Shown here: positions 7,176 through 34,900 of the stretch, piece by piece
Layout of the letters: every line of letters starts with the position of its first letter
How positions within the stretch are numbered: position 1 is the first letter of the stretch
DNA from: Rhynchopus sp. YZ270_cl-10
Taxonomy: Eukaryota
Reading direction: 5' to 3'
Length of the DNA stretch: 64,000 nt
Assembly (NCBI GenBank): GCA_964035575.1
Contig: OZ037847.1
Span: forward strand, 1,240,001-1,304,000
Notes under the pieces: model-generated
What the model saw: the letters and a program-made list of their open reading frames with translations, nothing else
What the model was told of the DNA's origin: nothing
The model's database searches: none
Made by a program: the position numbers and the translations under genes

Positions 7176-8369
7176 ATGTTGACCTCCATTGTCCTGCTTG
7201 CGCTTGCTGCGCCATGCACAGACCTGCGTCAGGAGTCGGGCAAGCGCTGGCATGATATTGACGGCAGCCGCTACAACTGCAAGTGGTACGCACGTGACAA
7301 CAACTGCATGCGCTACGGCAGTGACTACAGGAACGAGCACGTCGCGCTTGAGGCCTGCTGTGCCTGTGGTGGTGGCTCTGGTTCCGACACACTTCCGATC
7401 ATGGCGAACACAACGAACACCACTGTGCCGTTGCCTCCGTTGCCGCCCACTCCGACAAACAGCACCGATGGCAACTGGACTGAGAACAACTCTACCGGTA
7501 ACTGGACTGGAGACTACTGGACTGGCGACATCTGGACTGACAGCAACTCTACCGGAAACTTGACTGGTAACAACTCCACCGGAACGGGAAACTGGACCGG
7601 CGACAACTGGACTGAGAACAACTCCACAGGAAACTGGACTGACAACAACTCTACCGGTAACTGGACTGGAGACAACTGGACTGGAAACTGGACTGACAAC
7701 AACTCCACTGGAGCTGGCAACTGGACTGGCGACAACTGGACAGGAAACTGGACTGGTGGTAACTCCACCGGAGCTGGCAACTGGACTGGAGACAACTGGA
7801 CAGGAAACTGGACGGACAACAACTCCACCGGTAACTGGACTGGCGACAACTGGACTGGAAACTGGACTGACAACAACTCCACCGGAGCGGGCAACTGGAC
7901 TGGAGACAACTGGACCGGCAACTGGACTGGTGGTAACTCCACCGGAGCTGGCAACTGGACTGGAGACAACTGGACAGGAAACTGGACGGACAACAACTCC
8001 ACCGGAGCTGGCAACTGGACTGGAGACAACTGGACCGGCAACTGGACTGGTGGTAACTCCACCGGAGCTGGCAACTGGACTGGAGACAACTGGACAGGAA
8101 ACTGGACGGACAACAACTCCACCGGTAACTGGACTGGCGACAACTGGACTGGAAACTGGACTGACAACAACTCCACCGGAGCGGGCAACTGGACTGGAGA
8201 CAACTGGACCGGCAACTGGACTGGTGGTAACTCCACCGGAGCTGGAAACTGGACCGGCAACAACTCTAGCGGAAACTGGACTGGAGACAACTCTACTGGA
8301 ACCGGCAACTGGACTGGCGACAACTCCACCGCAGCTGGAAACTGGACCGGCGACAACTGGACCGTCTAG
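7176..8369 (+). CDS. Secreted Cys-domain / NWT-repeat glycoprotein, short form (397 aa)
   Basis: Array copy 4; translation identical to the 4900 copy. Confidence 0.9.
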   Translation: MLTSIVLLALAAPCTDLRQESGKRWHDIDGSRYNCKWYARDNNCMRYGSDYRNEHVALEACCACGGGSGSDTLPIMANTTNTTVPLPPLPPTPTNSTDGNWTENNSTGNWTGDYWTGDIWTDSNSTGNLTGNNSTGTGNWTGDNWTENNSTGNWTDNNSTGNWTGDNWTGNWTDNNSTGAGNWTGDNWTGNWTGGNSTGAGNWTGDNWTGNWTDNNSTGNWTGDNWTGNWTDNNSTGAGNWTGDNWTGNWTGGNSTGAGNWTGDNWTGNWTDNNSTGAGNWTGDNWTGNWTGGNSTGAGNWTGDNWTGNWTDNNSTGNWTGDNWTGNWTDNNSTGAGNWTGDNWTGNWTGGNSTGAGNWTGNNSSGNWTGDNSTGTGNWTGDNSTAAGNWTGDNWTV

Positions 8370-9451
8370 AAGATATGAGTATAGAACCCTGGCTCTTCGA
8401 CACCACAGGAATGCCGAATATTTCTGGTGTTGGTCATTTTCTTTCCCCCCCCCTTTTTTTTTGACTTCAACATTCCATTCGCATATGTTCTCTTGCAGAT
8501 GAAACTGTTCATCAGTGCTCGCGAAGTATCGCAGATGGATGCGTTTTGGGAAGAAGGAATACAAGCAGACATAGTGCAACGTTCCCTGTGCATTATTCTG
8601 TTTCGTTATTCACGATCTTCGAAAGCGTTTCATATTTTGTTCTCCCTCTCAAAGACTTTTTATTAGAACCAAGGTCGGATCCCTTGTGTTCACCCGTCTC
8701 CCTCCCCTGCCTTTTGTGTTTTATTTTGATGGCATCTTTCATTGTTGGACGTTCTGTCTCATCGCACTTCTGACTGCCTCTGTGCGGAGATGACGTTCAC
8801 GATGCCTTTTTCTATTAGAATCGACATTGATCCCACTTTCTTATGTGAGGTGACTAAGCACACAGAGCGGCTTAGATACATCTTACGAACTCATCTTTTG
8901 ATGTTTCCTTTCGCTTTTATTCATGATCCTTGACTTGTTTTTCTTTCTTTACATCAAGACCCCTTTGTGCTCTTCACGACCCTTGAGGGATGTGTGACCA
9001 GCTCCACTCATCTCTCGAGGATCTCAGGGATTCTGTTTTGACAATGTGGATACAGTATGAGAGAAAGACCCGTGCCTCTGCAGCAGGCCTTCTTCTTTGG
9101 AGAAGTTTCCTTTATACTGTGTCTGGCATTGTGCAAGAAGGAACCAAGCAAGCACAATAGGTCGTCGACTACCTTTTAACCAACCACTCACCCAATTGAA
9201 TTGGTGGCATCGTTTCATCGTTTTCAACAATAAATGCCAATCTTCTCCCCAGCCCCTTCATTTTGGAGATAATGCATTATTACCCAATATCATCCAATAC
9301 GCTCACAACCGCTTTTTCGTACGAGCAAGTCCTTAAGGTTCGCTGCTTTGTCCTGTTGAGGATTCAAGACTCCTGAAGAGGTAGATGTGGAGGTACACAA
9401 CTGCACGTAACGTTCGTACTTCTTCACCTCACAGATAAAACACACACAATA

Positions 9452-10819
9452 ATGTTGACCTCCATTGTCCTGCTTGCGCTTGCTGCGCCATGCACAGACC
9501 TGCGTCAGGAGTCGGGCAAGCGCTGGCATGATATTGACGGCAGCCGCTACAACTGCAAGTGGTACGCACGTGACAACAACTGCATGCGCTACGGCAGTGA
9601 CTACAGGAACGAGCACGTCGCGCTTGAGGCCTGCTGTGCCTGTGGTGGTGGCTCTGGTTCCGACACACTTCCGATCATGGCGAACACAACGAACACCACT
9701 GTGCCGTTGCCTCCGTTGCCGCCCACTCCGACAAACAGCACCGATGGCAACTGGACTGAGAACAACTCTACCGGTAACTGGACTGGAGACTACTGGACTG
9801 GCGACATCTGGACTGACAGCAACTCTACCGGAAACTTGACTGGTAACAACTCCACCGGAACGGGAAACTGGACCGGCGACAACTGGACTGAGAACAACTC
9901 CACAGGAAACTGGACTGACAACAACTCTACCGGTAACTGGACTGGAGACAACTGGACTGGAAACTGGACTGACAACAACTCCACTGGAGCTGGCAACTGG
10001 ACTGGCGACAACTGGACAGGAAACTGGACTGGTGGTAACTCCACCGGAGCTGGCAACTGGACTGGAGACAACTGGACAGGAAACTGGACGGACAACAACT
10101 CCACCGGTAACTGGACTGGCGACAACTGGACTGGAAACTGGACTGACAACAACTCCACCGGAGCGGGCAACTGGACTGGAGACAACTGGACAGGAAACTG
10201 GACTGGTGGTAACTCCACCGGAGCTGGCAACTGGACTGGAGACAACTGGACAGGAAACTGGACGGACAACAACTCCACCGGTAACTGGACTGGCGACAAC
10301 TGGACTGGAAACTGGACTGACAACAACTCCACCGGAGCGGGCAACTGGACTGGAGACAACTGGACCGGCAACTGGACTGGTGGTAACTCCACCGGAGCTG
10401 GCAACTGGACTGGAGACAACTGGACAGGAAACTGGACGGACAACAACTCCACCGGAGCTGGCAACTGGACTGGAGACAACTGGACCGGCAACTGGACTGG
10501 TGGTAACTCCACCGGAGCTGGCAACTGGACTGGAGACAACTGGACAGGAAACTGGACGGACAACAACTCCACCGGTAACTGGACTGGCGACAACTGGACT
10601 GGAAACTGGACTGACAACAACTCCACCGGAGCGGGCAACTGGACTGGAGACAACTGGACCGGCAACTGGACTGGTGGTAACTCCACCGGAGCTGGAAACT
10701 GGACCGGCAACAACTCTAGCGGAAACTGGACTGGAGACAACTCTACTGGAACCGGCAACTGGACTGGCGACAACTCCACCGCAGCTGGAAACTGGACCGG
10801 CGACAACTGGACCGTCTAG
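9452..10819 (+). CDS. Secreted Cys-domain / NWT-repeat glycoprotein, long form (455 aa)
   Basis: Array copy 5; translation identical to the 2450 copy. Confidence 0.9.
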   Translation: MLTSIVLLALAAPCTDLRQESGKRWHDIDGSRYNCKWYARDNNCMRYGSDYRNEHVALEACCACGGGSGSDTLPIMANTTNTTVPLPPLPPTPTNSTDGNWTENNSTGNWTGDYWTGDIWTDSNSTGNLTGNNSTGTGNWTGDNWTENNSTGNWTDNNSTGNWTGDNWTGNWTDNNSTGAGNWTGDNWTGNWTGGNSTGAGNWTGDNWTGNWTDNNSTGNWTGDNWTGNWTDNNSTGAGNWTGDNWTGNWTGGNSTGAGNWTGDNWTGNWTDNNSTGNWTGDNWTGNWTDNNSTGAGNWTGDNWTGNWTGGNSTGAGNWTGDNWTGNWTDNNSTGAGNWTGDNWTGNWTGGNSTGAGNWTGDNWTGNWTDNNSTGNWTGDNWTGNWTDNNSTGAGNWTGDNWTGNWTGGNSTGAGNWTGNNSSGNWTGDNSTGTGNWTGDNSTAAGNWTGDNWTV

Positions 10820-11901
10820 AAGATATGAGTATAGAACCCTGGCTCTTCGACACCACAGGAATGCCGAATATTTCTGGTGTTGGTCATTTTCTTTCCCCCC
10901 CCCTTTTTTTTTGACTTCAACATTCCATTCGCATATGTTCTCTTGCAGATGAAACTGTTCATCAGTGCTCGCGAAGTATCGCAGATGGATGCGTTTTGGG
11001 AAGAAGGAATACAAGCAGACATAGTGCAACGTTCCCTGTGCATTATTCTGTTTCGTTATTCACGATCTTCGAAAGCGTTTCATATTTTGTTCTCCCTCTC
11101 AAAGACTTTTTATTAGAACCAAGGTCGGATCCCTTGTGTTCACCCGTCTCCCTCCCCTGCCTTTTGTGTTTTATTTTGATGGCATCTTTCATTGTTGGAC
11201 GTTCTGTCTCATCGCACTTCTGACTGCCTCTGTGCGGAGATGACGTTCACGATGCCTTTTTCTATTAGAATCGACATTGATCCCACTTTCTTATGTGAGG
11301 TGACTAAGCACACAGAGCGGCTTAGATACATCTTACGAACTCATCTTTTGATGTTTCCTTTCGCTTTTATTCATGATCCTTGACTTGTTTTTCTTTCTTT
11401 ACATCAAGACCCCTTTGTGCTCTTCACGACCCTTGAGGGATGTGTGACCAGCTCCACTCATCTCTCGAGGATCTCAGGGATTCTGTTTTGACAATGTGGA
11501 TACAGTATGAGAGAAAGACCCGTGCCTCTGCAGCAGGCCTTCTTCTTTGGAGAAGTTTCCTTTATACTGTGTCTGGCATTGTGCAAGAAGGAACCAAGCA
11601 AGCACAATAGGTCGTCGACTACCTTTTAACCAACCACTCACCCAATTGAATTGGTGGCATCGTTTCATCGTTTTCAACAATAAATGCCAATCTTCTCCCC
11701 AGCCCCTTCATTTTGGAGATAATGCATTATTACCCAATATCATCCAATACGCTCACAACCGCTTTTTCGTACGAGCAAGTCCTTAAGGTTCGCTGCTTTG
11801 TCCTGTTGAGGATTCAAGACTCCTGAAGAGGTAGATGTGGAGGTACACAACTGCACGTAACGTTCGTACTTCTTCACCTCACAGATAAAACACACACAAT
11901 A

Positions 11902-13090
11902 ATGTTGACCTCCATTGCTTGCGCTTGCTGCGCCATGCACAGACCTGCGTCAGGAGTCGGGCAAGCGCTGGCATGATATTGACGGCAGCCGCTACAACTG
12001 CAAGTGGTACGCACGTGACAACAACTGCATGCGCTACGGCAGTGACTACAGGAACGAGCACGTCGCGCTTGAGGCCTGCTGTGCCTGTGGTGGTGGCTCT
12101 GGTTCCGACACACTTCCGATCATGGCGAACACAACGAACACCACTGTGCCGTTGCCTCCGTTGCCGCCCACTCCGACAAACAGCACCGATGGCAACTGGA
12201 CTGAGAACAACTCTACCGGTAACTGGACTGGAGACTACTGGACTGGCGACATCTGGACTGACAGCAACTCTACCGGAAACTTGACTGGTAACAACTCCAC
12301 CGGAACGGGAAACTGGACCGGCGACAACTGGACTGAGAACAACTCCACAGGAAACTGGACTGACAACAACTCTACCGGTAACTGGACTGGAGACAACTGG
12401 ACTGGAAACTGGACTGACAACAACTCCACTGGAGCTGGCAACTGGACTGGCGACAACTGGACAGGAAACTGGACTGGTGGTAACTCCACCGGAGCTGGCA
12501 ACTGGACTGGAGACAACTGGACAGGAAACTGGACGGACAACAACTCCACCGGTAACTGGACTGGCGACAACTGGACTGGAAACTGGACTGACAACAACTC
12601 CACCGGAGCGGGCAACTGGACTGGAGACAACTGGACCGGCAACTGGACTGGTGGTAACTCCACCGGAGCTGGCAACTGGACTGGAGACAACTGGACAGGA
12701 AACTGGACGGACAACAACTCCACCGGAGCTGGCAACTGGACTGGAGACAACTGGACCGGCAACTGGACTGGTGGTAACTCCACCGGAGCTGGCAACTGGA
12801 CTGGAGACAACTGGACAGGAAACTGGACGGACAACAACTCCACCGGTAACTGGACTGGCGACAACTGGACTGGAAACTGGACTGACAACAACTCCACCGG
12901 AGCGGGCAACTGGACTGGAGACAACTGGACCGGCAACTGGACTGGTGGTAACTCCACCGGAGCTGGAAACTGGACCGGCAACAACTCTAGCGGAAACTGG
13001 ACTGGAGACAACTCTACTGGAACCGGCAACTGGACTGGCGACAACTCCACCGCAGCTGGAAACTGGACCGGCGACAACTGGACCGTCTAG
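11902..13090 (+). pseudogene. Frameshifted array copy 6
   Basis: Same 5-bp signal-peptide deletion as copy 1 (CCATTGCTTGCG); unit length 2271 = 2276-5. Confidence 0.85.
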
Positions 13091-14172
13091 AAGATATGAG
13101 TATAGAACCCTGGCTCTTCGACACCACAGGAATGCCGAATATTTCTGGTGTTGGTCATTTTCTTTCCCCCCCCCTTTTTTTTTGACTTCAACATTCCATT
13201 CGCATATGTTCTCTTGCAGATGAAACTGTTCATCAGTGCTCGCGAAGTATCGCAGATGGATGCGTTTTGGGAAGAAGGAATACAAGCAGACATAGTGCAA
13301 CGTTCCCTGTGCATTATTCTGTTTCGTTATTCACGATCTTCGAAAGCGTTTCATATTTTGTTCTCCCTCTCAAAGACTTTTTATTAGAACCAAGGTCGGA
13401 TCCCTTGTGTTCACCCGTCTCCCTCCCCTGCCTTTTGTGTTTTATTTTGATGGCATCTTTCATTGTTGGACGTTCTGTCTCATCGCACTTCTGACTGCCT
13501 CTGTGCGGAGATGACGTTCACGATGCCTTTTTCTATTAGAATCGACATTGATCCCACTTTCTTATGTGAGGTGACTAAGCACACAGAGCGGCTTAGATAC
13601 ATCTTACGAACTCATCTTTTGATGTTTCCTTTCGCTTTTATTCATGATCCTTGACTTGTTTTTCTTTCTTTACATCAAGACCCCTTTGTGCTCTTCACGA
13701 CCCTTGAGGGATGTGTGACCAGCTCCACTCATCTCTCGAGGATCTCAGGGATTCTGTTTTGACAATGTGGATACAGTATGAGAGAAAGACCCGTGCCTCT
13801 GCAGCAGGCCTTCTTCTTTGGAGAAGTTTCCTTTATACTGTGTCTGGCATTGTGCAAGAAGGAACCAAGCAAGCACAATAGGTCGTCGACTACCTTTTAA
13901 CCAACCACTCACCCAATTGAATTGGTGGCATCGTTTCATCGTTTTCAACAATAAATGCCAATCTTCTCCCCAGCCCCTTCATTTTGGAGATAATGCATTA
14001 TTACCCAATATCATCCAATACGCTCACAACCGCTTTTTCGTACGAGCAAGTCCTTAAGGTTCGCTGCTTTGTCCTGTTGAGGATTCAAGACTCCTGAAGA
14101 GGTAGATGTGGAGGTACACAACTGCACGTAACGTTCGTACTTCTTCACCTCACAGATAAAACACACACAATA

Positions 14173-15366
14173 ATGTTGACCTCCATTGTCCTGCTTGCGC
14201 TTGCTGCGCCATGCACAGACCTGCGTCAGGAGTCGGGCAAGCGCTGGCATGATATTGACGGCAGCCGCTACAACTGCAAGTGGTACGCACGTGACAACAA
14301 CTGCATGCGCTACGGCAGTGACTACAGGAACGAGCACGTCGCGCTTGAGGCCTGCTGTGCCTGTGGTGGTGGCTCTGGTTCCGACACACTTCCGATCATG
14401 GCGAACACAACGAACACCACTGTGCCGTTGCCTCCGTTGCCGCCCACTCCGACAAACAGCACCGATGGCAACTGGACTGAGAACAACTCTACCGGTAACT
14501 GGACTGGAGACTACTGGACTGGCGACATCTGGACTGACAGCAACTCTACCGGAAACTTGACTGGTAACAACTCCACCGGAACGGGAAACTGGACCGGCGA
14601 CAACTGGACTGAGAACAACTCCACAGGAAACTGGACTGACAACAACTCTACCGGTAACTGGACTGGAGACAACTGGACTGGAAACTGGACTGACAACAAC
14701 TCCACTGGAGCTGGCAACTGGACTGGCGACAACTGGACAGGAAACTGGACTGGTGGTAACTCCACCGGAGCTGGCAACTGGACTGGAGACAACTGGACAG
14801 GAAACTGGACGGACAACAACTCCACCGGTAACTGGACTGGCGACAACTGGACTGGAAACTGGACTGACAACAACTCCACCGGAGCGGGCAACTGGACTGG
14901 AGACAACTGGACCGGCAACTGGACTGGTGGTAACTCCACCGGAGCTGGCAACTGGACTGGAGACAACTGGACAGGAAACTGGACGGACAACAACTCCACC
15001 GGAGCTGGCAACTGGACTGGAGACAACTGGACCGGCAACTGGACTGGTGGTAACTCCACCGGAGCTGGCAACTGGACTGGAGACAACTGGACAGGAAACT
15101 GGACGGACAACAACTCCACCGGTAACTGGACTGGCGACAACTGGACTGGAAACTGGACTGACAACAACTCCACCGGAGCGGGCAACTGGACTGGAGACAA
15201 CTGGACCGGCAACTGGACTGGTGGTAACTCCACCGGAGCTGGAAACTGGACCGGCAACAACTCTAGCGGAAACTGGACTGGAGACAACTCTACTGGAACC
15301 GGCAACTGGACTGGCGACAACTCCACCGCAGCTGGAAACTGGACCGGCGACAACTGGACCGTCTAG
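14173..15366 (+). CDS. Secreted Cys-domain / NWT-repeat glycoprotein, short form (397 aa)
   Basis: Array copy 7. Confidence 0.9.
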   Translation: MLTSIVLLALAAPCTDLRQESGKRWHDIDGSRYNCKWYARDNNCMRYGSDYRNEHVALEACCACGGGSGSDTLPIMANTTNTTVPLPPLPPTPTNSTDGNWTENNSTGNWTGDYWTGDIWTDSNSTGNLTGNNSTGTGNWTGDNWTENNSTGNWTDNNSTGNWTGDNWTGNWTDNNSTGAGNWTGDNWTGNWTGGNSTGAGNWTGDNWTGNWTDNNSTGNWTGDNWTGNWTDNNSTGAGNWTGDNWTGNWTGGNSTGAGNWTGDNWTGNWTDNNSTGAGNWTGDNWTGNWTGGNSTGAGNWTGDNWTGNWTDNNSTGNWTGDNWTGNWTDNNSTGAGNWTGDNWTGNWTGGNSTGAGNWTGNNSSGNWTGDNSTGTGNWTGDNSTAAGNWTGDNWTV

Positions 15367-16448
15367 AAGATATGAGTATAGAACCCTGGCTCTTCGACAC
15401 CACAGGAATGCCGAATATTTCTGGTGTTGGTCATTTTCTTTCCCCCCCCCTTTTTTTTTGACTTCAACATTCCATTCGCATATGTTCTCTTGCAGATGAA
15501 ACTGTTCATCAGTGCTCGCGAAGTATCGCAGATGGATGCGTTTTGGGAAGAAGGAATACAAGCAGACATAGTGCAACGTTCCCTGTGCATTATTCTGTTT
15601 CGTTATTCACGATCTTCGAAAGCGTTTCATATTTTGTTCTCCCTCTCAAAGACTTTTTATTAGAACCAAGGTCGGATCCCTTGTGTTCACCCGTCTCCCT
15701 CCCCTGCCTTTTGTGTTTTATTTTGATGGCATCTTTCATTGTTGGACGTTCTGTCTCATCGCACTTCTGACTGCCTCTGTGCGGAGATGACGTTCACGAT
15801 GCCTTTTTCTATTAGAATCGACATTGATCCCACTTTCTTATGTGAGGTGACTAAGCACACAGAGCGGCTTAGATACATCTTACGAACTCATCTTTTGATG
15901 TTTCCTTTCGCTTTTATTCATGATCCTTGACTTGTTTTTCTTTCTTTACATCAAGACCCCTTTGTGCTCTTCACGACCCTTGAGGGATGTGTGACCAGCT
16001 CCACTCATCTCTCGAGGATCTCAGGGATTCTGTTTTGACAATGTGGATACAGTATGAGAGAAAGACCCGTGCCTCTGCAGCAGGCCTTCTTCTTTGGAGA
16101 AGTTTCCTTTATACTGTGTCTGGCATTGTGCAAGAAGGAACCAAGCAAGCACAATAGGTCGTCGACTACCTTTTAACCAACCACTCACCCAATTGAATTG
16201 GTGGCATCGTTTCATCGTTTTCAACAATAAATGCCAATCTTCTCCCCAGCCCCTTCATTTTGGAGATAATGCATTATTACCCAATATCATCCAATACGCT
16301 CACAACCGCTTTTTCGTACGAGCAAGTCCTTAAGGTTCGCTGCTTTGTCCTGTTGAGGATTCAAGACTCCTGAAGAGGTAGATGTGGAGGTACACAACTG
16401 CACGTAACGTTCGTACTTCTTCACCTCACAGATAAAACACACACAATA

Positions 16449-23546: not shown

Positions 23547-25673
23547 ATGTCGAATAGCTTGTATGACGACTGCGAAGCACTTCCTTCGTATATAAAAGAG
23601 ACAAAAAAGCCGTATGGCGCTGATGCACCTGACTTTGCAGGGTGTAGCGAGGACTGCATCACTGCGTGGGCGAAGGAGACCCGGGTGGATGCTGGCATGG
23701 GACGCGCTGTGATTGACAACTATATGAGCCCTTACATGCGACGGTCGCCGTCACCCTCTTCTTCTTCTTCACGGTTGTCGGGAGTGGTGTCGGAGGAGAC
23801 TACGGTAACTACGATTGCTGCGGAAACGGATGTTTCTGGGACACCTTCTCCTCCTGGGTCACCAGCGAAGGATGTTAAAGCGGATTGGTCTGCCCGCCCA
23901 CCGCCGCACAAATCTTCCCCCATTGTCATCCCCGATGGATACAAAACATCGACCACAACAATCGTCTCCTCCTCCTCCGCCTCCGCGTCGTCGCTCCCCA
24001 TGCTCACAACCTCCTTCTTCCCTACAGCCAACGGCACTCCCCGCTCCTCCCTCCCGCCCCTCGAAACCCTCGAGACCGTGACAGAAGAGGTCTGGGAGAA
24101 CCAACGCTGGATGATCAAAGGCGGCTGGAAGGCGTCGTCCACGCTCGACAGAAACCCCTTCTCCGACAAATCGGGGAACAACGTCAGGGTAAAGGAGGGG
24201 ATGCAACTCCCCCACCTTTGGGTCTGGGTTGGAGACTGGCAGGTAGATTTATCAGGCCACGTTTTGTCTCCAACAAACAAAGAAACAGACCGAGGATGGT
24301 ACTACGCGAGCGCCTTTACAACAAGCATTAGCCACTGCAAACTGAAGCCAGGGAAGATGGATCTGGTCCGCCGCCGCCGCTGGCTTCGTGTACGAACCCG
24401 CATTTCAGAGGAAAGCCTCACAAACCTTGTCAAACTCGGCAATACTGGAGCCTCCTATTGGGCAGACTGTGAACGCTATGGATTCCCCCTCCCTCCAGCA
24501 GACTGCGAACCCCCCGCATCACATAGCTGGACTGCCTTTCAAATACACCACAATGCACTTCACTCTTGGCAATCCCTCCTCCACATCTCCAACCCAAGAA
24601 CCCTCTTCTGCGATCAAATCAAGCTTGAAGGCAAGCCCGGGGACATCAAAGGGAAACTGAGGGATTTAATCCGAAAGCATGGTGTACCGTCGGCATTGCG
24701 TTCAAAGGTGTGGATGGTTTGTTCCGGCGCCTCCAAAAAAAAGATGGAGAATGAAGGATACTACAAATGCGTTATAGAAAAAAACATTGAAGAGTTTGGC
24801 TTGGCTGTGGATGAGGCGGGGAATATCTTTGATGCAGCTGTTGTTGATCCTCCCCAGGGCAGCGCTGCTGCCTCTAAAAAACGCCTTGCTTCATGGACAA
24901 CAGAGCTCGAAAAAGACCTAGGGAGAACCTTCGTGGAGCACCCATACTTCGCCACCCCTCATTGCCCTGGACGGCAAAAACTAAAACGCGTTCTCTCCGC
25001 GCTCTCCTATCGAAACCCTCTAGTAAACTACTGTCAAGCCTTCAACTACATCTGCGCCCTGTTTCTCCTCAACTGCGCTGAAGAAGATGCATTTTGGCTA
25101 ATGGTAGCCTTATTGGAGGATATCCTTCCTAATGATTACTACAACGCACAGTTGGTGGGGATTACTGTGGATTTGCGGGTAGTTGAGGATTATGTGGATG
25201 AGTGCTGTCCGGCAGTGTCTGCGCATTTTAAACGGCATAACATCGATATATCTCCTGTAACCGCAGGGTGGATCATGAATCTGTATGTGAACATTTTCCC
25301 GGTGGAGGTGACGTTGAAGATTTGGGATGTGCTGTTTGCGGAGGGGCCGAAGATTGTGTTTCGTGTTGTGGTGGGGGTACTCAAGCTCTGGGAGAAGGAG
25401 TTGTTGGAGCTGACCGGGCTTGGCGATGTGGTGGAGTTCCTCAGCCGTTCCTGCAAGACTCTGCACGACCCGACTGCGCTCCTCACAGAAGGCTTTTCTG
25501 TGAAGCTCCGCAAAGTCAAGCTCGTCAAAATGCGGGAAAAACATAGAAAAGATGTCATGAAAGAAGTCGACATGCGGCGGCACGTCAGCGAGCTTGAAAA
25601 GGCAGATGAAGAACGTCGTGCATTAGAAGCTAGATCAGGGTTCTATATAGGCCCGGTCACTCGGTCGGTCTGA
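23547..25673 (+). CDS. Rab GTPase-activating protein with DysF (dysferlin/Pex24-type) and TBC domains
   Basis: DysF motifs VWENQRW..GGW, WVWVGDWQVD, GWYYA, VRRRRWLRVR. TBC motifs LIRKHGVPSALRSKVW, ELEKDLGRTF (Arg finger), YCQAFNY (Gln finger), LKIWDVLFAEG. Confidence 0.92.
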   Translation: MSNSLYDDCEALPSYIKETKKPYGADAPDFAGCSEDCITAWAKETRVDAGMGRAVIDNYMSPYMRRSPSPSSSSSRLSGVVSEETTVTTIAAETDVSGTPSPPGSPAKDVKADWSARPPPHKSSPIVIPDGYKTSTTTIVSSSSASASSLPMLTTSFFPTANGTPRSSLPPLETLETVTEEVWENQRWMIKGGWKASSTLDRNPFSDKSGNNVRVKEGMQLPHLWVWVGDWQVDLSGHVLSPTNKETDRGWYYASAFTTSISHCKLKPGKMDLVRRRRWLRVRTRISEESLTNLVKLGNTGASYWADCERYGFPLPPADCEPPASHSWTAFQIHHNALHSWQSLLHISNPRTLFCDQIKLEGKPGDIKGKLRDLIRKHGVPSALRSKVWMVCSGASKKKMENEGYYKCVIEKNIEEFGLAVDEAGNIFDAAVVDPPQGSAAASKKRLASWTTELEKDLGRTFVEHPYFATPHCPGRQKLKRVLSALSYRNPLVNYCQAFNYICALFLLNCAEEDAFWLMVALLEDILPNDYYNAQLVGITVDLRVVEDYVDECCPAVSAHFKRHNIDISPVTAGWIMNLYVNIFPVEVTLKIWDVLFAEGPKIVFRVVVGVLKLWEKELLELTGLGDVVEFLSRSCKTLHDPTALLTEGFSVKLRKVKLVKMREKHRKDVMKEVDMRRHVSELEKADEERRALEARSGFYIGPVTRSV

Positions 25674-26454
25674 CCGAGTCAGACGTTGACTCGGTCAGCC
25701 GTTTTTTTTTTTTTTTTTTTATAAATCTCAGATTTTTTTTCCAAATCTTGGGGTGGAAATTTTGGTACCTCCCACGAGCCTCTGAGAGTGACCAGAAATG
25801 GCCTCATGAACAAAGTGACCCCGTCACAGCCAGAACGCGACTCAATTGGTCAAACGCCGAAGGAAAAGGAAGCATGCATCATGGCGAAATAATAAAAGTA
25901 GCGTACCGTGCGCCTGCGGCGCAAGATTGCAACCCACCCTTCCCATGATATACTTTTGCAGTAAAAATGTGCAATTTTAAGCGCAATTTTTAGAAATGTT
26001 GCGTACCGTGGCTTCGCCAGAAACTTTCGTTTTAGAAAAACAGGGGAGTAAAATTACGGAAGCTGACCACAATTACCAGCGACAGTGCCGTTTTGTGTCA
26101 ACTTTTTTTTAGAAATGTTGCGTACCGTGGCTTCGCTTTGGGTGCCGTGACCGCCCTTTCTTTGTTATAAATGTACTGAGGCTACAGACAATTCGTGTAC
26201 CACTTGTGCCTGGTGCACGAATTGCTTCAATGAAGTGCCGAACTCCGCAGTTGGATAACCGAGGAATTCTCACATTCCGCCGGAGGCCCAACTTGAGCTA
26301 GGTTGGGGACCCGGGCTCGACCGAGTTTCAGCGAAAAACCCCAAAACCTATATAATTCCCTGTGGAGGGGGGAAATTTTTTTTTTGGGCTGACCGAGTCA
26401 AACCGATTCTGACCGAGCCAGCCCCTCGTGGGCGGAATGCTGTATAGAACCCTG
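25636..26454. mobile_element. Non-autonomous TIR DNA transposon (hAT-like MITE), 819 bp
   Basis: TIRs CAGGGTTCTATA(T)AG / CTGTATAGAACCCTG; TSD CTAGAT at 25630-25635 and 26455-26460; subterminal GACCGAG repeats in both orientations. Confidence 0.9.
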
Positions 26455-29182
26455 CTAGATGATTTTATTTTTTTTTTTCATGCGATAAACGAAAAAGTGT
26501 TTTCTTTATTTCGTTTAACTGTCATATCCTGAAGTCGTTTTCTATTTTTTCATTCAAATGCATTGACCAGAGAGAGGTTTAGGTTTCATCCCACCAACGA
26601 TTTTTTTTTCAAGAACTGATTCTTTTAATGTTTTGTTCATGCTGTTCAGTAATCTATGTGCGTTATATAAAAAAAATTGTTGGTAAAAAGGGGGGATGGG
26701 AGACAGCGTTTTCTGATCCCTCCGCCACGCCTCGAGATGAGGTGTGTATGTGTTATTGTGTTGTTTCTCTCGCCTACAAAGGATTATCGTGTGCAGAAAC
26801 TTGTTTGGGGAAACGAAAGAAAAAAAATGGCAGATTTGCTCTTTAGATATGGACGATATGCGTCCCTGAGTCTGCCAAAAAAAGGTTTATTTTTTTTCAG
26901 TGCCTGCGTCCCAAGAGGCGTTTTGCACTATCAACTTCACTATTTTTTTTTTTTGGAGGAGTCGGAATGGAGGCCCAATTTTTTACTTTGTACAGTGTAC
27001 TGCAGAAAATCGGGTCAACCTGACCCGATTTTAGAGCTTCTCTGTTTACTTTTTGTGGATTCCTAAAAAGAAGGGGGTGGATACAGCATTTTGAGGACCC
27101 TACCTGGGGTGATCGGGTCACTTTCATTCTACAAAATTCGCAAACCAGAAAAAATGGGGGGAAAAAAAAAATCAAAATATTTTTTTTTTTTGCAAATTCA
27201 TTTCGGGTTTTTGCGATTTTTGTTCCAGAAAAGTACCCCTGGTCGCCCTACCCTTTATTTCGTTCTCTGTCTCCTCATCCGATAAGAGATGAGACAGTAA
27301 ACGATATCGGCTACGTCCAGCCCCCTTCCCAACCCACACAACGTACAAACCATAACATTGGCTGGGTCTCTATCATTTTTGGTTTTTTTTTTTTGAACTC
27401 CGTTTTTTTTTTTTTTTTTCTCAAACAATTTTCGGGTCCACCCTACGGTGTACTGGTCATACACCTTAGACACACTATCATGTGAGGACTTTGTATTTCA
27501 AAAATATTTTTGACCTCTAGATTTAAAGAAAAGGAAAGCGTTGGACAGAATTTTTTGTATCAAGAACGATGGGAAGCATTTTTGTTTACATCTACTGTTG
27601 TAGGCCGCAGGGTACTGCTTTTCATCCGGATGGCTGGCATCGTACAGTGGGTCAGTTGGAGGTTTTGTTGATCCGTCCTCCTGATATCAATTTATTGAAT
27701 GCATAATATAATATATTGAAATGCTTGTATCAAGCAGTCTTGCCACCTTTTGAGGATGAGGTGCAGGTAACCGTCTGTAAAGCAAGACATCCTGATGGTT
27801 CTCTTTGGTTGTAACATAGTGTCAACTCACAAGGAGAGCTATAGTAACGCAATGCAATCAAATCACCCTTTTGAGATTTGCTTTTTGTTTCGCTCTGTTT
27901 CAAATGATCATTATTGGCGTCTCTGCTGTTTTTTGGTAAATCTATTGAGCGCTGCCAGGAAGACAGTCTTTTATCATCCAGAGTTTTTCTTCTTTTCTTT
28001 CGATGCCTGCGTCGCGCCGATGAACGGTGAGGCGTTTGCATTTTCAGCTTCTCTCTCTTTTTTCTTTTCGCGTCCGTTGAAGTATCACATCTGAGAATAC
28101 CCTCAAAAAACCGCATCAATTTTGGATGGAGAGACTCTTCATCTTCTTTGGTGTTTTTTCCCCCCCTGAAAAAAAGATTCATTTTGTTGAAGCTTTTATT
28201 GTCTGCATTGCGAGATTTATATAGTTTGTTTTGTCACGAGAGGGGATTTGGGTGCTTGTTGTGCTTTATCCAGGACTGGCATCGTGCGTGGTCAGTTCGG
28301 ATGTGCCTGCATTAATAACTAACAATTTCTTTGCTACTATGCAGACATACCTTTTACGTTTTTTTTATTTTTTCCTTTTTTATTGTCCGCCTTTCGATAG
28401 TGACAACACTGAGCAGCCTTGTGACACAGTCACTTTGTAATTGCAGCCCAGGGGTGTACCACCCATCATAGCAAAAAAAAACTTCCCTTGCTTTTGTTTC
28501 ATATGTTCGTTTATTGTGGGGTAAGTAGGGGGGTGCAGGGGAGGAGGACTGTGTTGGCAAATACGTGACTACCCTCCCACGTACCGCGTAAAATAGGTGA
28601 TTGCCACCCCAGGGAGTGGGAGGGAGAGAGGGAGGGAGGGAGGGGTTATTGTTTGTTCAGTTTCGATCAGTTTTTCGTGTTTCCGTTCTTTTAGGATGTC
28701 TTCTCTCAGTGTGGGCATCTGCATCAGATTGTTTTGTGTTTTTTTTTAGATATTTGTGCACGAGAGGCACACTCATCTTACAACTTACTTTGTAACACCC
28801 AAAGGGTCGTTCGATAACCCCACGGAGCGTTCGGTGTCTGCGTCCATTTTTTTTTTTTTTTTTTTTATTCCACAGTTAAATAAAGTATACGAAGGATTTG
28901 GCACTTTTAGCGTGATTCTTTTTAATGATAATTTCACGCAGTGTTTTTTTCGCAAATAAAAACCACGCTAATTGAACTTTATTTCACGCATTTTCACTTT
29001 TTTTCACTGCAATTCCTTAGGAGCGTGATTTTATTTTTGTTTTTTTCACGCCAAAACAGGGGTTTTTTTTGGCGATAACTTCACGCTAAATTTTGGTACA
29101 TCCTGCACCACCACCCGCCTAAAAATTGAAAATTGCGATTTTTTTTTGCACTTTTCCCATTTTTTTTTTTTACACACGCAAC

Positions 29183-29600
29183 ATGCCGAAGGATCTAAGC
29201 CGCAAACGGTCCTCCGACAAGAGATGGACGAGCGCTACAGTGGTTTTGTTGAAGGACTAGCATCGTCGACACCGTACGTCTGTGAATGGGACCGCTTTTG
29301 AAGGGATTCATTGGCAAGCCCAACGGTAAGCCCACGGAAGCCGACTTTGTTTTGTGCATAGTGCATCAAATCGTCGTCGTAATGGACAGCGTTCAGTAAG
29401 CTGAGCAGTATATTGGTGAGGAAGTATGGGGTGCAACTGCAAGACCAGTTTCCGCAGGCTCGTGTGTCTCTTGAAGCAACGCGAGACCGGCTACCGACAC
29501 GACAGTCCAAGGCACTCCGCACTTACGAAACTAGAAATCGACTCCTTCATTACCTATGAAGGCGAAGGACACACCACCCCCTTACTTCATTGTGAGGAAG
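29183..29600 (+). pseudogene. Degenerate N-terminal part of a Crypton tyrosine recombinase
   Basis: Hand translation gives EMDERYSGFVEGLASSTPYVCEWDRF* and KSSS*WTAFSKLSSILVRKYG, matching MEDLYETELLAGLKSSTAYKTEWNKF and KASSLWSCYSKLNFMFKTEFD of the 30743-31759 protein; stops and frameshifts present. Confidence 0.75.
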
Positions 29601-30287
29601 GCGGTGGCTGACATGATATTCTGTGATGGGCGGGGATCTACTGAATGTTTCTCGCTCTTGCATGAGAGCCATTTCCCGACCTCCCGCTAGCACCCGGGCC
29701 CAGTTTACCGGGTTTTTGCAGGTTCCCCCGCGGGGGGGTAACAGGGCTGGAGGGACCCTCCAGCCTTTTTTAGCCTCCCTCCAGCCCCTCAGGTACGCCA
29801 GCCCCCCCAGCTGGAGTCCCGCTAGCCTAGCTAGGGGTCCCGTGGGATTCCCGGTAGCGCTGGCGGGAGGGTAAGGAAAGCTACCCGGAGGGACACAAAC
29901 TCGTTAGTTATTGCACAATAAATGAGTCACGCTAAAAGTGCCAAATCCTTTCGTATACTTTATTTAACGTGAAATAAAATTACGTATTCAACGCCTTTTA
30001 GCGATTTTTTTTGCGATACTTCACTTATTTTTTTCCCAGGCTCGTGGATTCAATTTGCCTCGCTTCGCTCGGCAAATTAACTACCACTCGCCTGGGAAAA
30101 AAATGCGTGAAGTTATCGCAAAAAAAAACCACGCTAAAAGGCGTTGAACACGGATGCTGCCAGATCTGGCCAGATTTGGGGGCCAATTTCCCAGATCTGG
30201 CTCGTTTTCCAGATGTGGAGATCTTGTTTCCAGATCTGGCCAGATCTGGCCAGATCTGGGAATCTGGGAAAATTTTTTTTTCAAAAA

Positions 30288-31946
30288 ATAACTAATTATT
30301 AGCGTGAAATAAAGTGCACTTTTTTTCACGCCCACGTAATTTTGGCTCACGAGTGAGAGTTTATTGCCCGAGCCGCAGGCGAGGGCAATAATAGAGCACG
30401 AGTGAGACAAAATACGTGGAAGTGAAAAAACGCACTTTATTTCAAACTAATACGTAGTTTTGTTTTACAAGTGAAAATGATATTTTTGCTGGGATCCTTC
30501 ACAAACGAGACGTAAAATAGAGTGATTTTATGAACAAAATGTGGGTACCTGTAAGTGAGAGTGTGAATGAGAGTAGGGGAACATGTGAACATCAATCAAA
30601 AGCAGGGAAGGGGTTACTTTTTTTGATATATGCCTCCTATGACTGGTACTAATTACAAGATGTCACCACTCATCTCGCCTGTAGGGGGGGGGCAGGTGTA
30701 TAGAGCATCACAGAAGGGGGGTTTTTTTTTTTGCACTCATGATCATGGTTTGTTCTGTTGCACATTGATGTTAATCTTGACTTCTTGTGGCGTCTGAGTT
30801 GGGGGACTGTTGTTCTGTGTCAACAGCTGTGACATCGCAACTTGACCGGCCTGTGTGACTTCGGTGTACCTTTGTGGCATTGCCTGACTGACCCACCCAT
30901 AGTGGCGTTGCATCTGTACAATAGATGCTCCTGCCTCAGCGGCTTGAGTCGCAGAAGACCTGCGGAAGCTGTGCCCAGTGTACGAACCGTCCAGCGCAAG
31001 CACCCTCGCGACTTCTGCAGGTATGCCGTACATTTTGTTGATGCCAAGAGGTTGCACACGAAAGGTCCCAGTAGTAGTTCTGTCAGCTGTCGTCTTAGTT
31101 CCAGTGATGAAGAAGCGACCCTCCTGTGAAACTGGTGAGCGCCGGTTCAGGTACTCCTCCACCACACAAAAGTAGATGCTGTCTCTTGGTACCACAAACC
31201 TCCCACGCTCCATGTCGGCCTTTTTCACCTTAGCACAGTGCTGGTACGTGAAGAGGTATCCCACTGGTGATTCCTGATAATTTGTCATCTCAAGCATCAG
31301 TGCTTCTGTGCATCTCATTCCCGACAGAAAACACACCGCGACGTAAGCCTTGCGGACACACCAGTAGCAGTCGCTCAACTCGCTCATCTTGAGAAACATC
31401 TCCACTTCTCCCTTCGAAAACGTCTTGCTCTTCTTCGTCGATTCGTCACTTCCCCAGGTCTTCAGCAACAGCCCGATGCGGTGGTACTCCTTTAGTGAAA
31501 AGTCGAACTCCGTCTTGAACATAAAGTTGAGCTTAGAGTAGCACGACCATAATGAGCTGGCTTTGTAGCTGCGTTCTTCGCGCAGGTGTGTCAAGTAAGA
31601 GACCACATGTTCTTCTCTTGGCTGCTTCCGCCCCGTGATTTTATTGTGTTGTAAAAACTTATTCCACTCCGTTTTGTATGCAGTGCTTGACTTCAACCCT
31701 GCCAGAAGCTCGGTCTCATACAGATCCTCCATAGCCTCCTTCTTCTTGGTCCTTGGCATGATTTGTAGGGTGGAGTGTGTGGTTTTGTGACTGACAGAAA
31801 ACAGTGAAACTTTTTTTCACGCCAGTGAAACTTTTTTTCACGCCTCCAGCGAAATTACTAAGAGCAAGCGTGAAAAAAAGCTCACTTTATTTCACGCCCC
31901 GTTTGTGAAGGATCCCAGCAAAAAGTCATTTTCACATGTGATATAA
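30288..31946 (-). mobile_element. Apparently intact Crypton-type tyrosine-recombinase DNA transposon (~1.66 kb)
   Basis: Single YR ORF between inverted repeats (~30465-30525 / ~31882-31941), ~170-bp palindrome at 30290-30459, ATAA at both ends. It interrupts an A tract within the host element's CCAGATCTGG array. Confidence 0.85.
30743..31759 (-). CDS. Tyrosine recombinase, Crypton (CryptonI-like), 338 aa
   Basis: Catalytic R (GMRCTE), HxxR (YTGHSFRRSSAT), H/W (RHYGW), Y (QRY); N-terminal SSLWSCYSKL and KKSKTFS motifs; no RT nearby. Confidence 0.92.
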   Translation of the reverse strand: MPRTKKKEAMEDLYETELLAGLKSSTAYKTEWNKFLQHNKITGRKQPREEHVVSYLTHLREERSYKASSLWSCYSKLNFMFKTEFDFSLKEYHRIGLLLKTWGSDESTKKSKTFSKGEVEMFLKMSELSDCYWCVRKAYVAVCFLSGMRCTEALMLEMTNYQESPVGYLFTYQHCAKVKKADMERGRFVVPRDSIYFCVVEEYLNRRSPVSQEGRFFITGTKTTADRTTTGTFRVQPLGINKMYGIPAEVARVLALDGSYTGHSFRRSSATQAAEAGASIVQMQRHYGWVSQAMPQRYTEVTQAGQVAMSQLLTQNNSPPTQTPQEVKININVQQNKP

Positions 31947-34900
31947 AAAAAAAAACCCCCCAGATCTGGCCAGATCTGGAAATCTGGCCAGTTTTTTTTT
32001 TTTCTCAGATTTCTGGCTATTGTCTCCCAGGGAAAGGGACTCTCGAATTTTTTTTTTCGCCCCAAAATAGGGCTAATTTCGACGATTTGAGGCCATTTAA
32101 AGCAAAATTTGGCACTTTTGAGCATCTGTGGGGGTCTAAAACGTGGTTTTGCGAACCCGAAATTTCGTGGTTTTTACCAAAGACAAGTCGATTTTTGAAA
32201 AATCTCAAAAAAAAAAATTTTTTTTTCCGGGAAAATTTTGACCCCTGAGTAGGGTTTTTGTGCACCAAAAAGTGCAAAAAAACGCAAGAGTCGGGTGTTT
32301 TGACGATCTGGGGTACCGCCATATGCACTACAGGGGCCCACAATTTCGACTTTTTCTTAGCAATTTCCTTCATAATTTTTTTTTTCCGATTTTGGCAAAG
32401 GCAAATCTCAGGCAAAAAAAATTCACCCCTGATAGTGGGTCCTTGGGTGTCCAGATGCCAAAAACACAAAATTTTTGATGTTTTGACCATCTGTGGGCGC
32501 CTAAAACGCACTTCTCTGCCCAAAAAAATGAATATCGATTTTTCCTTAGCGTTTTTATAGCCGTGATTTTTGGGTATTTTTTCGCAAAGGGAAAAAAAAA
32601 ATATCAACCAAAATAGTGGGTCCTTGGGTGACCAAAAATGCAAAAAAAACGCATTTTTTTGGTGTTTTGACCCTTCAGAACCACCCAAAACGCACTTTTG
32701 TGTACCAAAACACGCATATTTCACATTTCCTTAGCAATTCCTTCACAAGTGCAAGGTGATTTTTGACCAAACTAATTTTGTGCACTTTTTTTGTGGTCAC
32801 GTGACGCTAAAATCCTCTCCGTGATGCGAGAATTACATGTGAGAATGCGATAATGATTCTCGCGTGCGAACGCCCAAAACCACGAGGACGCAAGCAAGGC
32901 TTCAGTGCACTTAGGTACAGGATGCGTCGTTTTCAGTTACAAAAAAGGGTACTGTGAAGCGGTTGAGGCACACACAGACCCGCTGCAAAATGCATCTGGG
33001 ACCCACGCTAGACCCCCTAAAAGCTGTAAAACCATATATTTCCATCTCGCGACCCCAGCGGATGTGGACTGAGGTGTTTTTTTTTGGGTGTTTAGAAAGG
33101 TTTTTGTCCGATTGGAGAATTTTTTCGGTAAGTGTTGCATTTTGTCCCCACTGAGTGTGCACTCAGAAAACACTCATCAATAAAACGACCTGGTAAAAAA
33201 TAGTTATTTTCTATCGTAGTAGTGGGTTTGTTGTGCAGTGATGTTCTTTGTACCTGGAGAGTGGGCCGAGTGCAAGGTATGTTTTTAACCCCCCGGTTTT
33301 CTCCCTTTTCGACATGTCCGCTATTTTTTAGCTATTTTTTTTTTTTGTCAACAAAAATGTCACTTTTACGTTTAAGGGGTACGGGGCGGCTTCTTGTTTG
33401 TTTGTTTGTTTTTTTGTTGTAGTCTCTACTTTTACATTCAATTTCTCTTAACAGGTACCCGAACCGACGACCCTTCATCGTGACAGCGAAGCAGTGCCGA
33501 TGGAAGAGCTGGTGCAATTATTTGAAAACCAGGTGGCGATCGTAAAAGTCGGGTTTATATACCAACTTTTCCATTAACCCACCCCATAGACCACCCTAAT
33601 TATTATGAAACTCTTAGTCAGTCACTGCTATAGCCATTTAATCCAGGGAGCATAGCTAGTGCAAGAAATTCGACTTCGGGATCCGGAAAGTCTGTCCTCT
33701 GCTTGCGGAGGACTAGGCACAAGAAAATATTGCGTTCCCCCAGAAAACCAATTTTTGTCAGAGTAATTTTTGCCCAGGGCATGCTCTTGAAGCATGGCGG
33801 CTTGGTGTGAGAAGGGGCAGTGTATTGTTTTGTTCTAGATTTCAACGGTTGTTAGAACGAGTCAAGTGGATGCTTATCTAAACACTGACTTTAGTACAGA
33901 CCCGAGAGATCACACATGACTTTGAGGAAAGAACAAAGCAATGCATCTGTACCCGCACGCCAGGTTGTAGTTACTTCAGAATTTTCTTAAGTTTGCATGA
34001 ACGAGGAGGGGCGAATCATTCTTCGGGAACCATTAGCTGTATACCATGGAATGATTTTCTCAAAAACACCACGTGGGGGCTGAATTCAATCCCTTAAGAA
34101 TTGCGAATTCAGCCTTTGTAGAAGGTACGTCTTACTTGTACTTGTACTTGTATGCCGTGTCCACCCTTCTCGACCTTACCGGTTCACATGTACGAATAAT
34201 ATTAGGCAGTGGTAACACCCTTCTCAATTGTGCAAACTTAAGAATTTTCTGCTGTAACTTACCAAAATCGATTTTCTTTCACCCCAAACACCCGCAACAC
34301 CCCACCTGCTACTTCGGTAGCCTGTGTTGTTGGGAGTTGGTTCTCATGTTGATCCCCAGTGTTTTGCACTGCTTCTTCTGAGCCCAACGCTGTTTGGCCT
34401 GTCGACGTAATAAATACGAAGACAGGGCGGCGGTGCCAACAATTTTCCGATGATGTAACGTTTATCTGATTGATTTATCGTTTGATATACCTTGTGTGTC
34501 CTACTTCGTAACTTGCACACACGAGCAACGTATATTGAACGGTACTTCAAGCGATACTTCGTTATGTCATTGGGGTACCTGGAAAAAAAAATTTTCCCAG
34601 ACGTCCCAGATCTCCCAGATTTGGCCAGATCTGGCCAGATCTGGCCAGATCTGGGACGTCTGGGAAAATTTTTTTTTCAAAAAAAAAAAAAAATTTTTCC
34701 AGATCTGGCCAGATCTGGGCGGCCCAGATCTGGAGATCTGGCCAGATCTGGCAGCATCCGTGGTTGAATAAATAGTTATTTTTTTTTTTTTGCAGACGTT
34801 ATCAGCTTCACTTTTTTCTAAAACAGGGATACCACGGATGCCGAAAGTACTTGAAATGGAAAAAGTACTTGAAGGTTCAAAAAAACCCCAGTACTTGATA

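What the first reader, a model, noticed from the sequence alone, without database searches (positions are those of the whole stretch)
28865..31946. Two divergent Crypton-type elements share an asymmetric ITR-YR-ITR-palindrome architecture and a T-tract target
Seen, reading each element in its own orientation: TTTTTAT-(AT/TC)CACA, an inverted repeat, the YR gene, the inverted repeat again, then a ~170-190-bp palindrome that opens AA(C/T)TACGTATT, is centred on a branched mini-hairpin (CTCGCTTCGCTCG versus CTCGCCTGCGGCTCG) and closes TAG-TTATTTT. Primary sequences differ but the layout is conserved, with many GCGTGAAA-like boxes and only TTAT repeated at the ends. Established: Cryptons are YR-only DNA transposons thought to move through circles with short direct repeats. 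Inference: a distinct YR transposon family in this protist lineage, in which TTAT is the crossover core, the boxes are recombinase binding sites, and the palindrome may act as a cruciform or be mobilised by itself.
Basis: partly seen in the sequence, partly recalled or inferred. Interest (0 to 1): 0.85.

Follow-up and report, generated by a model that had tools for sequence, protein, structure and literature searches.

The report
Crypton transposons with one-strand terminal hairpin
Two small jumping genes that encode a Cre-like recombinase (one intact, one broken) carry lopsided inverted repeats and a long end palindrome whose mismatches favour one strand; distant relatives share this layout, so these elements likely recombine through a folded DNA hairpin, a step not yet tested.

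Summary
The layout is real. B (31946-30288, minus strand) is an intact 1.66-kb element encoding a 338-aa Cre-fold recombinase with CryptonI-type motifs. A (28865-34779) holds only a broken N-terminal half and is split by a 4.6-kb TIR element, into which B later inserted. Both run TTAT, inverted repeat, gene, inverted repeat, ~180-bp palindrome, TAG-TTAT, in T(n)AT(n) targets. Public contigs show A's unbroken end, a B-less site and an internally deleted A derivative. The layout is not lineage-specific: 30 of 44 distant homolog families with enough flank carry such a palindrome (shuffled flanks: 6 of 335), 5' or 3' of the gene. Its mismatches are strand-polarised: on the strand entering from the palindrome end, 41 of 71 2x2 loops are GA/GA (1 TC/TC) and 14 of 31 tips are GNA triloops (0 reversed), whichever way the gene points. 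Best reading: a CryptonI-like clade whose end likely works as a folded DNA hairpin. The mechanism is untested. The scan noted a similar layout before, on other genomes, with a different (PHD-fused) recombinase.

The parts
28865..34779 (+). Element A, full extent (1.3 kb without insertion C), with TTAT cores at both ends in a T(n)AT(n) target
   Evidence: unbroken right end read in run X6
28863..28922 (+). A left inverted repeat, terminal, includes the TTAT core
   Evidence: 92% over 61 columns to 29920-29979
29183..29696 (+). A: broken N-terminal half of a tyrosine recombinase gene (stops, frameshifts; no HxxR or Tyr part)
   Evidence: other copies read on differently after 29696
29920..29979 (+). 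A right inverted repeat, subterminal, abutting the palindrome
29983..30148 (+). A palindrome (tip CTCGCTTCGCTCG at 30059-30071; GAA triloop and CGAG/CGAG loop on the minus strand), cut by C
30149..34762 (.). Element C: TIR element (CACGG...CCGTG, 27-bp perfect TIR, CCAGATCTGG repeats), 6-bp target duplication GTTGAA at 30143-30148 and 34763-34768; not part of the YR system but splits A and hosts B
30288..31946 (-). Element B, intact, TTAT cores at 31946-31943 and 30291-30288
   Evidence: a 1675-nt contig in run X6 covers 30283-31951 with 0 other letters and 1 gap; joint 30286-31945 in run X2 is a B-less site
31882..31948 (-). B left inverted repeat, terminal
   Evidence: 85% over 68 columns to 30458-30525
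30743..31759 (-). B tyrosine recombinase gene, 338 aa, R149-K177-H263-R266-W289-Y298
   Evidence: PF00589 E 3e-9; Cre fold, TM 0.70
30458..30525 (-). B right inverted repeat, subterminal
30283..30466 (-). B palindrome (tip CTCGCCTGCGGCTCG at 30383-30369; GCA triloop and CGAG/CGAG loop on the plus strand)
34769..34779 (+). A true right terminus TAAATAG-TTAT
30302..30331 (.). 30-bp inverted box pair GCGTG-N20-CACGC (others at 28910-28939, 29023-29051, 30105-30134, 31868-31897); candidate recombinase or host-factor sites, untested

Best explanation
A and B are CryptonI-like DNA transposons with one terminal and one subterminal inverted repeat and a long strand-polarised end palindrome, and their recombinase likely joins the two TTAT cores and likely recognises the element as a hairpin folded from one DNA strand. 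Shown: the anatomy; the duplicated TTAT in T(n)AT(n) targets; B's intact Cre-fold recombinase; several copies and an internally deleted derivative; spread of the layout across the clade; polarity of GA/GA loops, GNA tips and purine skew, tied to the palindrome end and not to the gene. Computed: if the ends were joined at TTAT, outer arm-core-left repeat would pair with inner arm-right repeat as one continuous stem with the core in its middle. Inferred: the strand entering from the palindrome end folds (as single-stranded DNA at a fork, or extruded from a supercoiled circle), is stabilised by sheared G.A pairs and a GNA mini-hairpin, and presents the core for strand exchange with a chromosomal TTAT, as integron attC sites do. 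The repeat-flanked gene cassette can flip without harm, which would explain both gene orientations.
For: Intact catalytic set and Cre fold. Motif match to CryptonI by eye in Kojima and Jurka's alignment. B-less site, second B flank, unbroken A end and A deletion derivative 29101-29743. Palindrome of 80 bp or more in 31 of 67 families, 30 of 44 with 300 bp or more of flank on both sides; shuffled flanks 6 of 335. On the inward strand: GA/GA 41 of 71 2x2 loops against 1 TC/TC (33 hairpins, A and B included); CGAG exceeds CTCG in 23 families, the reverse in 2, ties 6 of 31 (17:1 when the palindrome is 5' of the gene, 6:1 when 3'); GNA tips 14 of 31, reversed 0. Fold-independent skew: 491 purines against 221 pyrimidines at mismatched positions of that strand. 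Terminal TA(R)YTAT in 15 of 26 families not cut by the contig end, background 6%. Gene orientation is scattered on the YR tree: 10 changes for the 3' class, at least 3 forced by strong branches. Continuous stem across the joined ends in both A and B. CGAG blocks and GCGNAGC mini-hairpins are stable in DNA (abstracts); attC strand choice rests on unpaired features and nucleotide skew (abstract).
Against: No intermediate was seen: none of the 15 of 53 joints shown was an end-to-end junction (contigs drop rare forms). The model resembles Cre (TM 0.70), a double-strand recombinase, more than integron integrase 2a3v (TM 0.54). Tandem GA pairs are also stable in RNA (recalled). Variants of A's palindrome in run X6 give weak covariation: one compensatory pair, one gained pair, and 6 of 10 listed changes that break or miss a pair. 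14 of 44 families with long flanks show no such palindrome, 18 of 31 lack a detected abutting repeat, and 3 of 31 have long palindromes on both sides. One family (L006) has the reverse polarity. Extra bases on the outer arm are only a trend (17 against 7, p = 0.06). Families share descent, so these counts are not independent events. The energy model may itself favour GA/GA loops.
Confidence: 0.4

Rival explanations
1. Classical Crypton/Starship route. The recombinase excises a double-stranded circle at TTAT and reintegrates it by two-strand exchange. The palindrome and repeats are arrays of accessory (arm-type) binding sites read as duplex, or a cruciform that only helps synapsis.
For: Cre-like fold. 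lox-like 11+8+11 box pairs at both ends of B. This is the standing model for Cryptons (passages), and circles were reported for Starships (passages).
Against: Duplex binding sites do not explain mismatches placed at mirror positions with fixed strand polarity. The TTAT core is not flanked by symmetric boxes: in B they lie about 10 and 46 bp away. The exact box pair is absent from 79 of 80 homolog loci.
Confidence: 0.3
2. The hairpin is a replication or priming signal, not the recombination substrate. The excised strand or circle is copied from a mini-hairpin origin (host primase or polymerase), which makes the element copy-and-paste; the recombinase acts on ordinary duplex sites.
For: GNA-type mini-hairpins occur at phage and plasmid single-strand origins and in N4 promoters (section 4 of PMC13037366). 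The same polarity data apply. B contigs are far deeper than flank contigs, which suggests amplification.
Against: It does not explain why the outer arm and left repeat would form one stem centred on the TTAT core. No replication gene is present.
Confidence: 0.15
3. The ends are borrowed from Helitron2/Helentron elements and moved by a Rep/helicase in trans; the recombinase is cargo.
For: Same topology: terminal 5' repeat, subterminal 3' repeat, 3' hairpin, T-run target, gene in either orientation (passages of PMC3627910).
Against: Helitron2 repeats are 8-15 bp and insertion makes no duplication; here repeats are 61-68 bp and TTAT is duplicated. The layout travels with an intact recombinase across proteins only about 30% identical. 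The terminal motif resembles CryptonF direct repeats ATAACT/TAACTA.
Confidence: 0.05
4. The palindrome works as RNA (terminator, small-RNA source or guide).
For: Tandem GA pairs are stable in RNA too (recalled).
Against: Polarity follows the element end, not the gene (17:1 and 6:1). GNA triloops are a DNA motif. No Rfam match.
Confidence: 0.07

Closest known systems
CryptonI (Kojima and Jurka 2011, PMC3212892; e.g. CryptonI-1_RPro, 1657 bp)
   Same: YR-only gene with no C-terminal domain, similar size (B is 1659 bp), same C-terminal motif string by eye, non-autonomous derivatives that keep both ends; top Atlas cluster is arthropod PF00589.
   Different: That paper found CryptonI only in insects and no terminal repeats, direct or inverted. 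Here there is a TTAT direct repeat, 61-68 bp asymmetric inverted repeats and a ~180-bp polarised palindrome, in a diplonemid-like host. Whether the insect elements hide the same internal layout could not be checked.
CryptonF/CryptonS and Starships
   Same: Recombinase-driven, short direct repeat shared with the target; CryptonF repeats ATAACT/TAACTA resemble the reverse of the TAGTTAT terminus; some Starships have asymmetric inverted repeats.
   Different: No GCR1_C, peptidase, DUF3435 or cargo; different YR motifs; no long polarised hairpin in the passages read.
Helitron2 / Helentron ends (Bao and Jurka 2013, PMC3627910)
   Same: Asymmetric inverted repeats, hairpin beyond the subterminal repeat, T-run target, gene in either orientation.
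   Different: Enzyme is a tyrosine recombinase, not Rep/helicase; repeats and hairpin are several times longer; the core is duplicated.
Integron attC sites (and, recalled, CTX phage attP)
   Same: Tyrosine recombinase next to an imperfect palindrome whose unpaired features and purine skew mark one strand. This is the working analogy.
   Different: Bacterial; attC is short and serves promoterless cassettes. Here the hairpin ends a self-encoding eukaryotic transposon, the enzyme is closer in fold to Cre, and single-strand use is untested.
YR-PHD elements noted earlier by this scan (e1-7359707, e1-7360896)
   Same: Described as having inverted ends and a hairpin at one tip.
   Different: Other genomes, a PHD-fused recombinase and a 60-bp hairpin; unchecked AI notes; no sequence likeness to B was found.

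Membership tests
Crypton (superfamily) | Encodes a tyrosine recombinase and no reverse transcriptase or DDE transposase | tested here: met
   B has one long ORF, PF00589, full catalytic set, Cre fold
Crypton (superfamily) | Short (4-6 bp) direct repeat at both termini, shared with the target | tested here: met
   TTAT at both ends of A and B; removing one core leaves T(n)AT(n); B-less joint within 3 nt
Crypton (superfamily) | The two termini are not inverted repeats of each other (no classical TIRs) | tested here: met
   The partner of the left repeat lies about 170-190 bp inside the right end. Long asymmetric repeats are nevertheless present, which the published definition does not mention.
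Crypton (superfamily) | Circular double-stranded intermediate (proposed, not demonstrated) | tested here: inconclusive
   No end-to-end joint among 15 of 53 joints shown; contigs drop rare forms
CryptonI | YR groups with CryptonI in phylogeny | tested here: inconclusive
   Motifs match CryptonI and differ from the CryptonA/F rows seen, by eye; beetle and arthropod relatives. No tree with Repbase reference sequences could be built.
CryptonI | No C-terminal accessory domain | tested here: met
   Pfam shows only integrase and SAM-like domains
CryptonI | Insect hosts; no terminal direct or inverted repeats reported | tested here: not met
   Diplonemid-like host; TTAT repeat and asymmetric inverted repeats. 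Filed as CryptonI-like, not as CryptonI.
Helitron2/Helentron | Asymmetric inverted repeats plus 3' hairpin, T-run target | tested here: met
   Topology matches
Helitron2/Helentron | Rep/helicase gene; 8-15 bp repeats; no duplication at insertion | tested here: not met
   YR gene, 61-68 bp repeats, duplicated TTAT
DIRS/Ngaro/VIPER | Reverse transcriptase and RNase H inside the element | tested here: not met
   B is 1.66 kb with one YR ORF
Starship | DUF3435 captain, large size, cargo | tested here: not met
   element size

The most novel reading that the evidence does not exclude
A widespread clade of eukaryotic Crypton-type transposons recombines a folded single DNA strand, as integron integrases do: joining the ends builds one long stem with the crossover core at its middle, and sheared G.A loops plus a GNA mini-hairpin select which strand is used. 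It would be the first single-strand tyrosine-recombinase transposition in eukaryotes, with a sequence signature that finds the elements' ends and their orphan palindromic derivatives.
Probability: 0.3. Interest if true: 0.85.

Novelty: new variant of a known kind. Interest (0 to 1): 0.62.

Why it matters
Crypton transposition has not been shown experimentally (review passage), and the ends of animal Cryptons were reported to lack repeats. A compact, intact, apparently young element with exact ends, a defined 4-bp core and a conserved strand-specific hairpin makes the question directly testable. It also gives a rule for finding the boundaries of these elements in many eukaryotes. If the folded-strand step holds, it is a new recombination mode for eukaryotic transposons and a small Cre-like enzyme with an unusual substrate.

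Tried and rejected
No whole genome is held, so genomic copies, empty sites and solo palindromes could not be counted. The word-based protein search found only B itself; the full HMMER search found 1770 relatives. Viral contigs: 21 pattern matches, none a relative. No RNA holder listed. Rfam: no match. No earlier scan notes on this genome or like B. Joints 28778-34798, 28779-32070 and 32098-34770 have short sides (21-25 letters), unknown letters between, and do not match A's ends; I do not count them as an empty A site. Runs X6 and X9 (other organism labels) hold B nearly letter for letter while the flanks are hardly covered; missing cover proves nothing, so I make no horizontal-transfer claim. 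Summed contig depth is no copy number and is used only as a hint. The tree is the quick IQ-TREE run (the careful run did not finish), 49 rows, with L080 dropped for short alignment and no Repbase references. Rejected: chance palindromes (z below -11, shuffled controls); a branched AAV-like tip (the fold shows an internal loop and a triloop); a lineage-specific family; C as part of the YR system (it has its own TIRs and a 6-bp duplication, and no long coding match was seen). PMC12910113 passages held nothing relevant.
Full report
Anatomy. The region is a nest of three elements. Element A starts after a long T run at TTAT 28865-28868. Its left inverted repeat begins at that core (28863-28922) and matches 29920-29979 at 92%. 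The palindrome follows directly (29983 onward) and is cut at GTTGAA 30143-30148 by element C, a 4.6-kb TIR element (CACGG...CCGTG, 27-bp perfect TIR) that duplicated those 6 bp. A's last bases, TAAATAG-TTAT, lie at 34769-34779. A contig of run X6 reads straight from 30148 into TAAATAGTTATTTTT, which confirms this. Element B lies on the minus strand inside C, from TTAT 31946-31943 to TAG-TTAT 30294-30288, with repeats 31948-31882 and 30525-30458 (85%) and palindrome 30466-30283. Removing either element with one TTAT leaves T(n)AT(n). Outside the 30-bp boxes, blastn aligns A and B nowhere. The palindromes fold at z = -13.6 and -11.2 against 200 shuffles.

Genes. B encodes 338 aa: PF00589 at E 3e-9, R149, K177, H263, R266, W289 and Y298 conserved in 90% or more of 30 aligned relatives, a confident model (pLDDT 88.7) closest to Cre/Tre (TM 0.70; integron integrase 0.54). 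A holds only fragments of the N-terminal half, in several frames with stops. The C-terminal motif string of B matches the CryptonI rows of Kojima and Jurka's alignment and differs from the CryptonA and F rows shown (by eye). HMMER finds 1770 clusters at E <= 0.001. Of 25 recombinase clusters looked up, three name an organism: a beetle, Diplonema japonicum and a coral. A neighbouring host gene is closest to diplonemid proteins (55% to Rhynchopus).

Mobility (contigs of four runs). X6 holds B whole on one 1675-nt contig with 0 other letters and 1 gap, and shows B's right end beside a different flank. X2 has a joint 30286-31945, a copy of C without B (25 letters on the short side, letters between not known). 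X2 and X4 show an A derivative lacking 29102-29742, at depth 10,145 in X4 where flank contigs run 77-166. Identical B contigs run at 4,116-15,548 in X2 where flank contigs run 325-420. Depth is no copy number, but both families look multicopy and B looks young. None of the 15 of 53 joints shown was a circle junction.

The layout is clade-wide. One metagenome scan kept the best 80 of 106 loci, which collapse to 67 families. Thirty-one carry a palindrome of 80 bp or more within 1.5 kb of the gene (30 of the 44 with 300 bp or more of flank on both sides); shuffled flanks give 6 of 335. Thirteen also show an inverted repeat next to the palindrome whose partner lies across the gene. The palindrome is 5' of the gene in 21 families and 3' in 10 (after reassigning L064), and this is not clustered on the YR tree. 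Three families have long palindromes on both sides. The outer end carries TA(R)YTAT in 15 of 26 uncut families, against 6% of random flank windows and 6 of 31 inner ends. Long T runs were not evident at the homolog ends printed (not counted), so the T-tract may reflect this T-run-rich host; the shared element is the YTAT core.

The palindromes are strand-polarised. On the strand whose 5' end lies at the palindrome end, 41 of 71 2x2 internal loops are GA/GA and 1 is TC/TC (33 hairpins, A and B included). CGAG outnumbers CTCG in 23 families, the reverse holds in 2 and 6 tie; 14 of 31 tips are GNA triloops and none is the reverse. Arm-to-arm alignments, which need no energy model beyond placing the tip, give 491 purines against 221 pyrimidines at mismatches on that strand. 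The polarity holds for both gene orientations (17:1 and 6:1). CGAG blocks form sheared G.A pairs and GCGNAGC is an unusually stable DNA mini-hairpin (abstracts of PMC10085684 and PMC13037366). Mismatches at mirror positions with fixed polarity make sense only if one strand folds on itself. Independence from the gene's direction points to DNA, not the transcript. Against: families share descent; covariation within the A family is weak; L006 is reversed; the outer-arm bulge excess is not significant.

Mechanism. If the ends are joined at TTAT, the reverse complement of the junction aligns with the internal repeat/palindrome border over about 110-120 columns in both A and B: one stem with the core in its middle and the gene as a loop. 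I infer that the recombinase uses this folded strand as its donor site and exchanges it with a chromosomal TTAT, with replication finishing the job, as shown for integron attC sites (abstract of PMC5027507; passages of PMC3458562; CTX phage attP is recalled). Confidence 0.4. Rivals: an ordinary duplex circle with accessory sites (0.3), a priming hairpin (0.15), an RNA role (0.07), Helitron2 ends with the recombinase as cargo (0.05). That A and B are Crypton-type recombinase transposons with this end structure is well supported; only the substrate step is open.

Comparison with what is known. Kojima and Jurka 2011 (passages, supplement 1 whole, passages of supplement 4) found no terminal repeats in animal Cryptons and CryptonI only in insects. 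The 2026 Glomhopper paper (abstract, Background, passages) repeats that Cryptons have only short direct repeats. A 2026 review says the mechanism is undemonstrated (passages). Starship circles are reported in a preprint (passages). Helitron2 has the same end topology with another enzyme (passages). Kojima 2018 classifies Eulor5/6 as Cryptons; the words hairpin, self-complementary and palindrome do not occur in it. Eight full-text searches aimed at prior description (listings only, except the papers named) showed none of this layout for Cryptons. The library lacks Repbase, Dfam and most subscription papers. I recall that Eulor repeats are described as self-complementary and that corals and oysters hold abundant palindromic repeats with CTCG...CTCG centres, so parts of this may already stand in database entries (recalled, not checked). 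The scan itself noted a similar layout in two findings on other genomes with a PHD-fused recombinase (unchecked).

Verdict. The elements are Crypton-type, CryptonI-like, and their end structure is a new variant of a known kind, shared widely rather than private to this protist. The strand-polarised hairpin is the new and testable part. Interest 0.62.

Noticed in passing
window 30149-34762: TIR element C (CACGG...CCGTG, 6-bp target duplication, CCAGATCTGG repeats in both ends, no clear coding remnant); superfamily not assigned. A related terminus CACGGATGC occurs at 34833.
   Followed up: partly
window 25636-26454: A second small TIR element (CAGGG...CCCTG), also with a 6-bp duplication (CTAGAT); its end motif TATAGAACCCTG recurs once in each of the ten tandem units at 1-22.5 kb.
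   Followed up: partly
window 53.4-63.5 kb: Tandem copies of a GC-rich retroelement with an unknown ORF, YR, RT and RNase H, each preceded by a long (CT)n run; the order resembles VIPER/TATE (recalled). Its YR is not close to B's.
   Followed up: partly
window 1-22.5 kb: Ten tandem copies (about 2.3 kb period) of a gene with Asn-Trp-Thr-Gly-rich repeats and no Pfam match; probably a surface or secreted protein.
   Followed up: no
window 23547-25673: Intronless Rab-GAP TBC gene with a Pex24/dysferlin-like domain, closest to diplonemid proteins.
   Followed up: partly
L065, L066, L074, L076, L078, L079: One YR family found in six contigs with the same palindrome and different flanks right after it; a long-branch member with a different terminal motif; useful for mapping exact ends.
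   Followed up: partly
L006:1618-1973: A 356-bp palindrome with reversed CGAG/CTCG polarity relative to the gene-distal end; may be an inverted or differently bounded element.
   Followed up: no
P0008, P0017, P0062: Relatives of 1000-1700 aa with several YR-like stretches in one protein.
   Followed up: no
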